Of a stretch of 64,000 nucleotides of DNA, positions 11,701 to 14,700 are shown piece after piece. Position numbers: made by a program. Position 1 is the first letter of the stretch, and every line of letters begins with the position of its first letter. The stretch lies in the NCBI RefSeq assembly GCF_011045215.1, contig NZ_CP049201.1, one strand, 5' to 3'. The stretch is from Escherichia coli (GTDB taxonomy: Bacteria > Pseudomonadota > Gammaproteobacteria > Enterobacterales > Enterobacteriaceae).

Positions 11701-14700
11701 TTTTTATAGGGTGTTAATCTGGTATTTAATTAAAAGACGGAGTTATTTATACTGACATATCAAATAAATAATTTTTAACGACTTTTCTATTTGGCTGATT
11801 GTTTTGCGTTCTTTTTATAAGGTGTTTTATTTTTAAAGGTTTTTTGATGAGATTACATAGTCTTAAAATAAAAGGATTTAAACGTATCCAAACTGCAAGA
11901 GATAATATTTGGTGATACCACGTTTCTCATTGGTGCTAATAATGCCGGTAAAAGTTCTGTTCTGAAGGCCGTTGAATGGCTGCTTTCAGATAAAAAGAAG
12001 ATGGATATTGACTTTTTTTATTGTGAATCTGATGAATCACGTGAAAATAAAATAGCAACTGAGTCAATTGTACTCGAGGCTGAATTCAGAAATGTACCGG
12101 AAGAGGCATTGCAATGGAGAGGTTTTAGGGGGAGGATATTTGAATATAATGCTGGAAATAGTGGGGAAACGGGAAAGTCTCTGATTTACAGGAAAACATA
12201 TGAACCGGGGAATGATGTTGTTATTGAATTGAAATCTTTTTCAAGAAAATTGAATACACGATTTGAAACCGCAGTCAGAGCATCTGACTTGGTAGAAGCT
12301 GGTGCTGATGCCGAAATCATCACTGAGTATTTTCCAGATCAAGCTAAAAGATTTAATGCAGCTGACAAAGAAAAATTAAAACTCATTGATGAATTATGGG
12401 ATATTTCTGATGATGAAGAAGTTTGGGATAAAAACCCGGGGGGAATTGCAGGTGTTGTGTTATCCCGATTACCTGCTTTTCTATTAATACCAGCAGAATC
12501 AGCTTCTCATGAAATTGACACAAAAGCGGGAGCTTTGCAGAAAACGCTGAATGAACTATTCAAAGATGTTCGTGGCAATTCAGAAAATTATAGAAAGGCC
12601 CAGGAGTCTCTGAATGCGCTTGCGAAGGAATTAGATCCTGCAGATGAAACGTCAGAATTTGGTGTGATGATGGGAGAACTTAACAGTGTATTAAGCGGAG
12701 TTTTTCCAGAGTCAAAGATATATGCTACGGCTGATTTATCTGATCCTGATAATGTTCTCCTACCTTCATTTTCGGTTGAAATGTCGAGTAACATTAAAAC
12801 ATGTGTATCGAATCAAGGAACCGGAATGATTCGAGCAGCTGTATTTGGATTGTTGAGATTTCGGCAGCAATGGCTGAGAAAAAAAGGTAAGGATGATGCT
12901 GCTACCAGAAGTCTTATTATTGGATTTGAAGAACCAGAAATTTATTTACACCCTAGTGCAGCAAACCAGATGAGAGATTTGATTTATGAATTATCAGATG
13001 GACAGTCACAAATAATAGCGACAACACATTCACCTTATTTGATTGATTTGTCGAGAAAACCCCGACAGGTACTTAACCGATTCCATTATGATAATTCACA
13101 TACGACAGTCTACCCGCTCTCAGTGACAGAGAAATTTCTGGCCTTGCAGGATAATGATAAAGATCAGATAAAAATGCTGATTAAGCTGGATGATCATGTA
13201 TCAAGGATCTTTTTTACCCGAAAAGTTGTTGTTGTCGAGGGAGATACAGAGGAAGTCATTATCAAAGAAGCTATCCGCAGAATGCCAAAAGCAATGCGAA
13301 ATAAGTTGCTTGCATCAACAGAGCTGGTTAAAGCACGTGGCAAGGCTGCGATTATCGGCCTGGTGAAGTATCTTAGCGCGCTGGATGTTGATTTTTTTGT
13401 TATCCATGATCGTGATGGCGGAACTCCCGGTGCGGAGATCTTTAATGCGCCGATTGCTGCTGCTGTTGGGGATGCCAGCAAAGTTATCATGCTGGAAGAG
13501 TGTATTGAGGATCTGCTGGGGTACCCAGCTCCAAGTGGTGAAAAACCGTTTAAGGCGTATCAGGAAGCACAGCGCTGGGGAGATAACTGGAATGACGTGC
13601 CTGAACCATTAAGGAGAATACTGACTAGAGCTTTTTCCCCATTTATCGATTTGGCTGAATGAGCAAAAGGGAAAAACTCTGATAAGTAGAGAGTTGAAGA
13701 TGAGCGCTTGGTGCATTGCCAGCACTCTTTTGATTGAAGATCTTTATTTCAGTGAAAGTGGTGCCTGGTTTGCCTTGCCTAAACGTATCATAAAGTCGGC
13801 ACACCATACCTGATGCTGCTATGCGATGTTCCTGCTGGATGTGATGTCGGAAAGAAAGGCGGAATATTACTGCAATAAGGTAGCAGTCCATATCAGACGC
13901 GGGCCTTTCATGATGAACAGGAGAATAACTTGAGTTGCCGGGAATTGCCGCGGCCATACGACATAATCGGGCCAGAGGAAAACACCAGATGGCCTCAATA
14001 TCTGACATTGTCAGAGACCTTTCGCGGCTCGGCTGGACGGATGAACGCATTGGCACTGAGCGGGGCAAGTGCTAAGGCTGAAACAGATTAGCGGGCTGAC
14101 GGGCCTGTTTCAGGAAGAGGATTTCAGCCCGGCATAGACGCTTCGCTGATACTGTTATTGTTATTTCAGTGAGTTGATGTTTTGAGCAGGAAAAAGAGTA
14201 CCCTGGAAGTTGTGGAAGACAAGGTTGCACAGAAACTGGAGGCTGCAGGTTACTGGCGCAGAGCTTCTGCCCGCTGGTTATTTGTTATGGGCAATTTTGA
14301 ATGTACAGAAGCACAAGGGGAGTGGTTGTTGTTACGCAGGAATTATTGCCTGACGCAGATATCGTCCCCGCCGCTACCTGAAAAGCTGGATATCAGCGAA
14401 GTGGTAAAAGCTGCAGATGCCACGCTGAGGCGAATGGGGATTGCCAGCCCGTCCGGAGAGGTATTCAGAAAAGGTATATTGACCTGTAGATATTCAGATA
14501 ACAGGTATTGATGATGAATAAAGGAAGTATATCAATGACATGGCAGCTTTTATGCGATGAACATGGTTTTACCCGGGAACATTACAGTGAACTGAAGAAA
14601 TTCAGTCCGGAGGTATTACATGAAATTATTGTTGAAATGGCCTGCTGCCATCCATCAACCAGTGTATTGCTCAGGAATAAGTGGCTGACACCGCCGGAGG

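What the first reader, a model, noticed from the sequence alone, without database searches (positions are those of the whole stretch)
11847..13662. Stand-alone OLD-family ATPase/TOPRIM nuclease with a frameshifted N-terminus
The ORF has the ABC-ATPase and TOPRIM motifs of OLD-family nucleases (as in P2 Old, Gabija GajA, PARIS AriAB). Walker A is encoded upstream of the annotated Met in the same frame, but the plausible start (MRLHSLKIKGFK at 11847) is in another frame. No helicase gene is adjacent, so this is a class-1-like single-gene OLD rather than Gabija. It lies in an AT-rich block with small regulators.
Basis: partly seen in the sequence, partly recalled or inferred. Interest (0 to 1): 0.5.

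Follow-up and report, generated by a model that had tools for sequence, protein, structure and literature searches.

The report
Frameshifted stand-alone OLD defence nuclease gene
This is an E. coli copy of a single-gene anti-phage nuclease of the OLD family (ATPase plus TOPRIM nuclease) that one extra A near its start has knocked out; it is an ordinary decaying defence gene in a genomic island.

Summary
Window 11847..13662 (+) is a 1816-nt OLD-family ATPase/TOPRIM gene. It carries one extra A at 11897/11898 (GCA-GAG has become GCA-A-GAG, codon 17/18) compared with intact 1815-nt, 604-aa orthologues in four complete E. coli genomes. The ATG at 11847 therefore runs into a stop after 22 codons. 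The Walker A motif and the rest of the protein lie in the +1 frame.

The repaired protein has Pfam AAA_15 and OLD-like_TOPRIM domains and all conserved catalytic residues. Its nearest solved relative, by sequence profile and by predicted fold, is the Class 1 OLD of Thermus scotoductus. It is further from GajA, the retron Eco8 OLD and AriA. In 80 loci from other species no neighbouring gene family recurs in more than 10% of loci, and no UvrD-like helicase was detected nearby. The single-gene, Class 1 reading therefore holds.

A NERD/UvrD helicase lies 2.1 kb upstream, but this linkage is limited to an E. coli/Serratia type VI secretion (T6SS) island.

The frameshift is private to this genome. 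Ten of 14 complete E. coli genomes with the gene carry other lesions. Two neighbouring defence genes in the window are also broken, so genuine decay is the most likely explanation.

It is a new member of a known kind, and interest is low.

The parts
11847..13662 (+). Whole OLD-family (Class 1-like) ATPase/TOPRIM gene, 1816 nt, disrupted by a +1 insertion. The intact orthologue is 1815 nt and 604 aa.
   Evidence: Pfam AAA_15 and OLD-like_TOPRIM; PADLOC Old 1.8e-66.
11897..11898 (+). Frameshift site: AA where orthologues have a single A (GCA-GAG has become GCA-A-GAG, between codons 17 and 18). It is not in a long homopolymer.
   Evidence: Alignments. The insertion is absent from 8 aligned E. coli loci and 3 metagenome contigs.
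11847..11915 (+). Residual N-terminal reading frame: 22 codons then TGA. The first 17 residues are the authentic N-terminus (beta-strand 1 of the ATPase). An AAGG Shine-Dalgarno-like motif lies 7 nt upstream of the ATG.
   Evidence: model secondary structure E2-11.
11932..11955 (+). Walker A / P-loop (GANNAGKS, residues 29-36; K35 invariant in 52 homologues). It is encoded in the +1 frame with no canonical start codon upstream.
   Evidence: sequence read directly.
12001..13662 (+). 553-aa residual ORF starting at Met52. It lacks beta-strand 1 and the P-loop and is predicted to be ATPase-dead.
   Evidence: This exact product is not on record in public assemblies.
12919..12954 (+). Walker B / D-loop (IGFEEPEIYLHP, residues 358-369). 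E361 matches P2 D299 and Ts E276; E362 is invariant; H368 matches P2 H306 and Ts H283.
   Evidence: residue roles from PMC7049728.
13210..13416 (+). TOPRIM core (residues 455-523). Metal-binding residues are E464 (13237-13239), E468, D521 (13408-13410) and D523 (13414-13416). The near-invariant E554 and K566 follow, up to the stop at 13660-13662.
   Evidence: Pfam PF20469 at 455-523; alignment to P2 E398/E402/D453/D455 and Ts E377/D381/D431/D433.

Best explanation
The locus is a recently inactivated copy of a stand-alone (Class 1-type) OLD-family nuclease gene. It lies in the variable, defence-gene-rich part of an E. coli island that starts at tRNA-Phe beside yqgA/speC and also carries a type VI secretion (T6SS) cluster.

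Inferred, for the intact protein, from characterised Class 1 OLDs: it forms a dimer through the helical insert. ATP binding and hydrolysis by the ATPase heads gate a two-metal TOPRIM nuclease. On a phage cue the nuclease cuts nucleic acid and aborts the infection. The substrate could be DNA, nicked or degraded as with Vibrio cholerae and T. scotoductus OLD, or tRNA as with P2 Old. Neither the substrate nor the trigger of this subfamily is known.

Inferred for this genome: the gene is non-functional and the mutation is real rather than an assembly error.
For: Identity: Pfam AAA_15 (1-399, 1.4e-40) and OLD-like_TOPRIM (455-523, 8.9e-12); PADLOC Old 1.8e-66 as best hit; PHROG 4747 full length, 7e-124. 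The family profile against PDB gives Ts OLD (Class 1, 6p74) 3e-65, matching through to the C-terminus, against GajA 5e-27, Eco8 OLD 2e-17 and AriA 7e-8. The AF2 model has pLDDT 85 and its top Foldseek hit is 6p74, E 3e-24. K35, E362, H368, H394, E464, D521 and D523 are invariant, and E361, E468, E554 and K566 near-invariant, in 52 homologues. Nine residues map onto residues whose mutation abolishes P2 Old killing (PMC7049728).

Stand-alone status: homologues occur next to a P4-like satellite primase in Klebsiella; among housekeeping genes in Pseudomonas and Enterobacter; in a Salmonella integrase-bounded island next to dsbD/cutA; next to a Vsr/Dcm module in P. aeruginosa; and on a Vibrio filamentous phage. 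In 80 loci from other species the commonest neighbour family is in only 8, and none has a UvrD-like neighbour.

Inactivation.

Real decay rather than error: the indel is not in a long homopolymer. 4.7 kb of core genome aligns to the best E. coli hit over equal lengths in a single piece. The neighbouring GIY-YIG gene has a separate -1 deletion in a non-homopolymer context. The hsdR-like gene has a CAG-to-TAG substitution with no gaps over 3366 nt. The same OLD gene is independently broken in 10 of 14 complete E. coli genomes by a G6-to-G5 deletion, IS1 or IS66.
Against: No reads are available, so a single-base assembly error cannot be excluded. The insertion is private to this genome: it is absent from 14 complete E. 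coli genomes and 3 metagenome contigs. Apart from the insertion the gene is clean, with only 7 substitutions and 3 amino-acid changes against strain C5. That fits either a very recent mutation or an error. No member of this ~600-aa subfamily has been tested. Identity to P2 Old is only 24% and to Ts OLD 18% in the structural alignment, so defence activity and substrate are extrapolated. For E. coli YbjD a Walker A mutant kept its anti-phage phenotype (PMC13261556), so loss of the P-loop does not always give a null in this family. Here, however, the first strand is lost too and the start context is weak.
Confidence: 0.75

Rival explanations
1. The extra A is a sequencing or assembly artefact, and the strain carries an intact, functional 604-aa Class 1 OLD gene.
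For: The insertion is unique to the window among 8 aligned E. coli loci and 3 metagenome contigs. The rest of the ORF has no further lesion and is 99.6% identical to the intact C5 allele. The exact truncated product is not on record anywhere.
Against: An A-to-AA change in GCAGAG is not a typical homopolymer error. The core region and several neighbouring genes show no indels against close relatives. Two other defence genes of the same island are broken by different kinds of lesion, one of them a nonsense substitution. This gene is often inactivated in other E. coli.
Confidence: 0.15
2. The OLD protein is part of a multi-gene, Gabija-like or larger module together with the upstream NERD/UvrD helicase (7945..9732). 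The module may also include the PD-Lambda-1-like GIY-YIG nuclease and the ImpA_N/VasL protein. On this view it is not truly stand-alone.
For: The order tssE - GIY-YIG - NERD/UvrD - ImpA_N/VasL - OLD, all on one strand, is shared by E. coli, Serratia marcescens (87% identity) and a metagenomic relative (85%). In those two non-E. coli relatives the helicase and VasL genes overlap by 14 nt, and in Serratia OLD starts 35 nt after VasL. The helicase matches GajB models (5e-21) and a PADLOC candidate model, NERD+UvrD, at 2.5e-141.
Against: In Gabija the helicase lies immediately downstream. Here it is upstream with one or two genes in between. Relatives at 89% (Salmonella) and 80% identity lack the helicase, and so do all 65-69% relatives examined. 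None of 80 loci from other species has a UvrD-like neighbour or any conserved neighbour. In the window a 324-nt AT-rich spacer precedes OLD. The protein is closer to Class 1 Ts OLD than to GajA.
Confidence: 0.06
3. The frameshift is bypassed during translation. A +1 shift at GCA-AGA-G would skip the inserted A and produce exactly the wild-type protein at low level, throttling a toxic nuclease. AGA is a rare Arg codon in E. coli (own knowledge, not tested here).
For: Sequence only. The zero frame reads GCA AGA GAU, and the +1 codon after GCA is GAG, the wild-type codon 18. The resemblance to known +1 sites at rare Arg codons rests on my own knowledge and was not tested.
Against: There is no stimulatory Shine-Dalgarno-like element and no codon that would allow P-site tRNA to re-pair. 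The allele is found in a single genome and is not conserved, whereas programmed sites are conserved. Four intact alleles lack it.
Confidence: 0.03

Closest known systems
Thermus scotoductus OLD (PDB 6P74), the structural archetype of Class 1 OLD nucleases
   Same: It is the best PDB match by sequence (7e-19 with the single sequence, 3e-65 with the family profile, aligned through to the C-terminus) and by predicted fold (Foldseek E 3e-24, TM 0.54/0.62). Both have an ABC ATPase with a Glu-type Walker B (E361 = Ts E276), a D-loop His, an H-loop His, a helical insert, and TOPRIM residues E464/E468/D521/D523/E554 matching Ts E377/D381/D431/D433/E480. The C-terminal region is of similar length. Both are single genes.
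   Different: Identity is only about 18%. This protein is about 80 aa longer, with an extra beta-rich insertion at roughly residues 50-200 of the ATPase domain. Ts R487 aligns with Ala561; the conserved basic residue in this family is K566 instead. No biochemistry exists for this subfamily.
Bacteriophage P2 Old (UniProt P13520), the founding Class 1 OLD
   Same: PADLOC's Old model is the best defence-model hit (1.8e-66). Direct BLASTP gives 24% identity over 350 aa plus the N-terminal P-loop segment. K37, D299, H306, H332, E398, E402, D453 and D455 of P2 all align with conserved residues here. Both are single genes on mobile elements.
   Different: The homology is remote. The C-terminal metal-B and Lys residues of P2 (D541, E543, K550) do not align by sequence. 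P2 Old is activated by RecBCD inhibition and cleaves tRNA anticodon stems (PMC12445682). Nothing indicates the same trigger or target here.
Vibrio cholerae Vc OLD and E. coli YbjD (OldB), bacterial Class 1 OLDs with reported anti-phage phenotypes
   Same: They have the same domain plan and single-gene context. Vc OLD needs Walker A, Walker B and the TOPRIM DxD for defence and nicks DNA (PMC12392090). YbjD is a chromosomal E. coli paralogue (PMC13261556).
   Different: YbjD is only 25% identical over 213 aa. YbjD does not need its TOPRIM domain or Walker A lysine for its phenotype, which shows that mechanisms differ within Class 1.
Gabija GajA (Class 2 OLD), retron Eco8 OLD (Class 3) and PARIS AriA/AriB (Class 4)
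   Same: They share the ABC-ATPase fold and, for GajA and Eco8, the TOPRIM domain. PADLOC scores are AriA 1.9e-42 and GajA 3e-32; PDB profile scores are GajA 98 bits, Eco8 66 bits and AriA 35 bits.
   Different: There is no downstream UvrD-like helicase, no reverse transcriptase or Rfam RNA family nearby, and the TOPRIM is fused rather than a separate AriB. The NCBIfam Eco8 effector model scores 56.7 bits against a cut-off of 250. The C-terminal region is shorter than the 230-aa Class 2 C-terminal chains.

Membership tests
OLD family (ATPase + TOPRIM nucleases) | N-terminal ABC-type ATPase domain with Walker A Lys, Walker B acidic pair, D-loop and H-loop His | tested here: met
   AAA_15 at 1-399, 1.4e-40. 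K35, E361/E362, H368 and H394 are invariant or near-invariant in 52 homologues and align to P2 K37/D299/H306/H332. In the window these are encoded but separated from the start codon by the frameshift.
OLD family (ATPase + TOPRIM nucleases) | C-terminal TOPRIM domain with a conserved Glu and a DxD metal-binding motif | tested here: met
   PF20469 at 455-523, 8.9e-12. E464, E468, D521 and D523 align to Ts E377/D381/D431/D433 and P2 E398/E402/D453/D455.
OLD family (ATPase + TOPRIM nucleases) | Metal-dependent nuclease and ATPase activity | not testable with these tools
   This needs purified frame-corrected protein. No member of this ~600-aa subfamily has been assayed.
Class 1 OLD (single-gene) | [quoted passage not shown] | tested here: met
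   Downstream of the window gene are only remnants annotated as PAPS-reductase and IbrB-like pseudogenes in other strains. In 80 loci from other species there were no helicase-like neighbours within 3.5 kb (single-sequence phmmer, E <= 0.01), and the largest neighbour family is in 8 of 80 loci. Seven further contexts have no helicase. Caveat: a NERD/UvrD helicase lies 2.1 kb upstream in the E. coli/Serratia clade.
Class 1 OLD (single-gene) | C-terminal region lacks the helical domain of Class 2 proteins; closest to Class 1 structures | tested here: inconclusive
   The region from about residue 443 to 604 is about 160 aa, against 156 aa for the Ts C-terminal region (PMC7049728) and 230-aa Class 2 C-terminal chains (6NK8, 6NJV). 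The profile matches Ts OLD to its C-terminus at 224 bits, against GajA at 98 bits with the match ending at profile position 522. Foldseek's top hit is 6p74. The absence of the Class 2 helical domain rests on this length comparison and on Class 1 being the nearest relative; it was not examined directly in the model.
Class 1 OLD (single-gene) | Sufficient alone for anti-phage defence or abortive infection | not testable with these tools
   This has been shown only for P2 Old, Vc OLD and over-expressed YbjD (PMC12445682, PMC12392090, PMC13261556).
Gabija (Class 2 OLD, GajA + GajB) | GajA directly followed by a gajB UvrD-like helicase gene | tested here: not met
   No such gene lies downstream. 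GajA models score well below the Old model (3e-32 against 1.8e-66).
Retron-associated OLD (Class 3, e.g. Eco8) | Adjacent reverse transcriptase and msr/msd ncRNA; matches the NCBIfam Eco8 effector model | tested here: not met
   NF038234 scores 56.7 bits against a cut-off of 250. No neighbouring ORF matched a reverse-transcriptase-only defence model in PADLOC or NCBIfam; the upstream helicase gave secondary hits to RT-associated helicase models (RTasHel, RTasNERD-Hel), which reflect its helicase domain. No Rfam family reaches its gathering score in 9000-17000.
PARIS (Class 4, AriA + AriB) | ATPase (AriA) and TOPRIM (AriB) encoded as two separate proteins | tested here: not met
   The AriA model matches residues 1-399 (1.9e-42), but the TOPRIM domain is fused in the same polypeptide in all intact orthologues.

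The most novel reading that the evidence does not exclude
The cassette shared by E. coli, Serratia and one metagenomic relative could be a co-operating multi-nuclease/helicase module attached to a type VI secretion island, with OLD working with the helicase in a dispersed, Gabija-like way. The cassette is PD-Lambda-1-like GIY-YIG nuclease, NERD/UvrD helicase, ImpA_N/VasL and OLD, on one strand with overlapping genes in the non-E. coli relatives. Its piecemeal inactivation in E. coli (GIY-YIG and OLD both frameshifted here) could then reflect selection against an auto-toxic system. A still more speculative variant is that the GCA-A-GAG allele is leaky through +1 decoding at a rare AGA codon.
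Probability: 0.06. Interest if true: 0.5.

Novelty: new member of a known kind. Interest (0 to 1): 0.2.

Why it matters
The direct significance is small. This is one more broken defence gene in a mosaic E. coli island.

Two modest points are useful. First, the gene belongs to a large, phylum-spanning and experimentally untouched subfamily of about 600-aa stand-alone OLD nucleases (PHROG 4747). Members ride on P4-like satellites, a filamentous phage and integrative islands. Only a handful of Class 1 OLDs have been characterised, and they differ in substrate and trigger, so the intact alleles (for example WP_073521218 and WP_096970643) are ready-made candidates for testing.

Second, the gene has been knocked out independently at least three ways in E. 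coli. This fits the idea that such nucleases are costly and are readily lost.

Tried and rejected
1. I looked for the same frameshift elsewhere. An exact look-up of the 553-aa truncated product found nothing. A scan of metagenome contigs with the junction, allowing 0 or 1 extra base, found three contigs, all without the extra A. All eight aligned complete E. coli loci lack it. So there is no support for a lineage-fixed allele and no independent confirmation of it either.

2. Gabija-like pairing with the upstream NERD/UvrD helicase is rejected as an obligate partnership.

3. A retron or PARIS assignment is rejected.

4. An alternative in-frame start upstream of Walker A does not exist. There is no ATG, GTG or TTG between the stop at 11869-11871 and 12001 in that frame.

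5. The promoter and terminator scans were uninformative. Counts were at or below the shuffled expectation.

6. The ORF on the opposite strand at 13643..14068 and the other short antisense ORFs are mechanical. The region corresponds to PAPS-reductase/IbrB-like pseudogene remnants annotated on the + strand in related strains.

7. The sequence of V. cholerae Vc OLD was not available, so closeness to that characterised member could not be measured.
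Full report
**Observation.** The ATG at window 11847 opens a frame that reads MRLHSLKIKGFKRIQTARDNIW and stops at 11913-11915. The long ORF listed mechanically, 12001..13662 (553 aa), is in the +1 frame. Read upstream of its first Met, that frame continues as ...EIIFGDTTFLIGANNAGKSSVLKAVEWLL. This is a P-loop, with no ATG, GTG or TTG before it. Alignment with the orthologous genes of E. coli C5, APEC20/16 and 99-3165 shows a single difference in length. The window has GCAAGAG where the others have GCAGAG, so there is one extra A at 11897/11898, between codons 17 and 18. 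Intact orthologues are 1815 nt and 604 aa. With the A removed, the window encodes the same 604-aa protein with three substitutions relative to C5.

**What the gene is.** The repaired protein matches Pfam AAA_15 over residues 1-399 (1.4e-40) and OLD-like_TOPRIM over 455-523 (8.9e-12).
- Among defence-system models the best hit is PADLOC Old (1.8e-66), ahead of AriA (1.9e-42) and GajA (3e-32).
- The retron Eco8 effector model reaches only 56.7 bits against a curated cut-off of 250.
- Against solved structures the best sequence match is 6P74, the Class 1 OLD of Thermus scotoductus (7e-19). With a profile of 52 homologues this rises to 3e-65 (224 bits) and runs through to the C-terminus. GajA scores 98 bits, the Eco8 OLD 66 bits and AriA 35 bits.
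- An AlphaFold2 model built on that alignment is confident (mean pLDDT 85, pTM 0.82). Its best Foldseek match in the PDB is again 6P74 (E 3e-24), followed by GajA and Eco8 OLD.

In the 52-sequence alignment K35, E362, H368, H394, E464, D521 and D523 are invariant. E361, E468, E554 and K566 are nearly so. These align with the residues shown by mutagenesis to be required in Ts OLD (K34, E276, H283, H310, E377, D381, D431, D433, E480) and in P2 Old (K37, D299, H306, H332, E398, E402, D453, D455) (PMC7049728). Identity to P2 Old itself is only 24%, and to the E. coli paralogue YbjD 25% over 213 residues.

**Stand-alone or part of a system.** The published class scheme (PMC7049728, PMC10568477) defines four classes:
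- Class 1: isolated genes.
- Class 2: followed by a UvrD-like helicase (Gabija).
- Class 3: inside retrons.
- Class 4: the split AriA/AriB pair.

In the window nothing helicase-like follows the gene. Downstream are remnants that other strains annotate as PAPS-reductase and IbrB-like pseudogenes, then PerC, DUF465 and HTH genes. No Rfam family reaches its threshold in 9000-17000.

It matches a PADLOC candidate model at 2.5e-141 and GajB models at 5e-21. It lies 2.1 kb upstream, separated from OLD by a 101-aa ORF and a 454-aa ImpA_N/VasL ORF.

The order tssE, GIY-YIG, NERD/UvrD, ImpA_N/VasL, OLD is shared with Serratia marcescens (87% identical OLD) and a metagenomic relative (85%). In those two the helicase and VasL genes overlap by 14 nt. 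Against a functional pairing:
- The 89%-identical Salmonella gene and an 80%-identical gene lie in other contexts without a helicase.
- The 65-69% relatives sit beside a P4-like satellite primase in Klebsiella, among housekeeping genes in Pseudomonas tolaasii and Enterobacter, and beside a Vsr/Dcm module in P. aeruginosa.
- A 48% relative is cargo of a Vibrio filamentous phage.
- A scan of one genome per species returned 80 loci from Proteobacteria, Bacteroidota, Bacillota and others (39-68% identity). After clustering all ORFs within 3.5 kb, the most frequent neighbour family, a roughly 470-aa protein, is in only 8 of the 80 loci. No neighbour resembles the helicase.

The family is therefore single-gene by the context criterion. 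Its C-terminal region is about 160 aa, which fits the Class 1 pattern (Ts 156 aa) rather than the 230-aa Class 2 C-terminal chains. This is a length comparison only; I did not look for the Class 2 helical domain in the model.

**Is the gene dead, and is the frameshift real?** The only product with a canonical start begins at Met52. It lacks beta-strand 1 and the P-loop. Walker A mutants of P2 Old and Vc OLD are null (PMC7049728, PMC12392090), so a non-functional gene is the expected outcome. The YbjD K35A result (PMC13261556) warns that this does not hold for every OLD protein.

The insertion is private to this genome:
- Only 14 of 5426 complete E. coli genomes carry the gene, and none has the extra A.
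- Three metagenome contigs containing the junction are all wild type at that position.
- The exact truncated product is not on record.

That leaves two options, a recent real mutation or an assembly error. I favour a real mutation, at about 0.75-0.8, for these reasons:
- The change is not in a long homopolymer.
- 4.7 kb of adjacent core genome (yqgA-speC-nupG) aligns to the best E. coli hit over equal lengths in one piece.
- The helicase, the 101-aa ORF and a 3.4-kb hsdR-like gene align to relatives without gaps.
- Two more defence genes of the same island are broken by different lesions. The PD-Lambda-1-like GIY-YIG gene (6509..7752; PADLOC 6.7e-89) has lost a G at about 6861, GAGGAGTTT becoming GAGGATTT. 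The hsdR-like gene has a CAG-to-TAG substitution at 23615.

The OLD gene is also inactivated independently elsewhere. Seven complete genomes share a G6-to-G5 deletion at codon 197. Two more carry that deletion plus an IS66 truncation, and one carries it with an IS1 insertion and a further deletion. Only four genomes keep the gene intact. One metagenome contig also has the G-run deletion.

**Mechanism.** Shown: domain architecture, conservation of the catalytic residues, single-gene mobile distribution, and disruption in this genome. Inferred from Ts OLD, P2 Old and Vc OLD: an ATPase dimer gates a two-metal TOPRIM nuclease that, on a phage-derived cue, damages nucleic acid and aborts infection. 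Characterised Class 1 enzymes differ in target. Ts OLD degrades DNA (PMC7049728), Vc OLD nicks DNA (PMC12392090) and P2 Old cleaves tRNA anticodon stems (PMC12445682). They also differ in dependence on RecBCD, so the substrate and trigger of this subfamily cannot be predicted.

**Rivals.** I considered an assembly artefact (0.15), a dispersed Gabija-like module with the upstream helicase (0.06), and leaky +1 decoding (0.03). The last rests on the fact that skipping the inserted A in GCA-AGA-G restores exactly the wild-type sequence. No stimulatory element is present and the allele is not conserved.

**Novelty and verdict.** This is a new, untested and, in this strain, inactivated member of the known Class 1 OLD kind. 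It lies in a decaying defence and T6SS island at tRNA-Phe (53780) next to yqgA/speC. Interest is low, about 0.2. The main practical value is that the intact alleles of this widespread roughly 600-aa subfamily (PHROG 4747) are good candidates for experimental work on stand-alone OLD nucleases.

Noticed in passing
window 6509..7752 (+): A GIY-YIG/T5orf172 nuclease gene similar to the PD-Lambda-1 defence protein (PADLOC 6.7e-89 for the intact SC418 orthologue). In the window it is frameshifted by loss of one G at about 6861 (GAGGAGTTT has become GAGGATTT). It is a second broken defence gene in the same island.
   Followed up: partly
window 21707..25072 (+), stop at 23615: A type I restriction R-subunit-like / DEAD-box helicase gene, 1121 aa and intact in strain C5. 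In the window a CAG-to-TAG nonsense substitution at codon 637 splits it into 653-aa and 450-aa ORFs. There are no indels over 3366 nt.
   Followed up: partly
window 7945..9732 (+): An intact NERD + UvrD-like helicase gene. It matches the PADLOC candidate model C3a187 (NERD+UvrD) at 2.5e-141 and is annotated '3'-5' exonuclease' in RefSeq. It may be an uncharacterised single-gene defence candidate.
   Followed up: partly
window 5952..13662; L016 1067..7809; L116 2766..9809: A conserved same-strand order follows the T6SS baseplate genes: tssE, a small protein (YdcA or DUF1283), GIY-YIG, NERD/UvrD, ImpA_N/VasL, OLD. It is shared by E. coli, Serratia marcescens and a metagenomic relative. In the latter two the helicase and VasL genes overlap by 14 nt. 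A T6SS TssA-like gene is thus sandwiched between defence-type genes.
   Followed up: partly
window 10158..11522 (+): The ImpA_N/VasL (TssA-like) ORF is an uninterrupted 454 aa in the window. RefSeq annotates the corresponding region of other E. coli strains as two or three pseudogene fragments.
   Followed up: no
window about 13740..14150 (+): Remnants directly downstream of the OLD gene, inferred from annotations in related strains: a PAPS-reductase/DUF3440 gene and an IbrB-like gene, both frameshifted and truncated. They look like relics of an IbrA/IbrB-type pair.
   Followed up: no
window 16817..20750 (-): An IS21-type element (overlapping ORFs 16817..17815 and 17589..19235, read from the sequence, not searched) and an IS4-family transposase gene (19335..20750, NCBIfam 1.5e-103). 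They lie between the regulator genes and the restriction-modification genes, a stretch that is only about 1.5 kb and without annotated genes in strain C5.
   Followed up: no
L110 2584..4035, L041, L105, L114 and four other loci: A roughly 470-aa protein with an N-terminal zinc-ribbon-like CPKCG motif and a long coiled coil lies directly next to the OLD homologue, on the same strand, in 8 of 80 species. It is the only recurrent neighbour. I did not identify its family.
   Followed up: no
L034 7135..8928 (Vibrio phage vB_Vipa71, MT193890.1): An f237-like filamentous phage of V. parahaemolyticus carries a 597-aa homologue (48% identity) as cargo next to its zot/ace genes. So an inovirus carries a putative defence nuclease.
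   Followed up: no
L009-L013 6001..7794 (Klebsiella pneumoniae): The 67%-identical homologue sits at the edge of a P4-like satellite (primase, AlpA, Ogr/Delta, Psu). The adjacent cargo varies between strains and in one strain includes an Mrr-like gene. This looks like a satellite defence hotspot.
   Followed up: no
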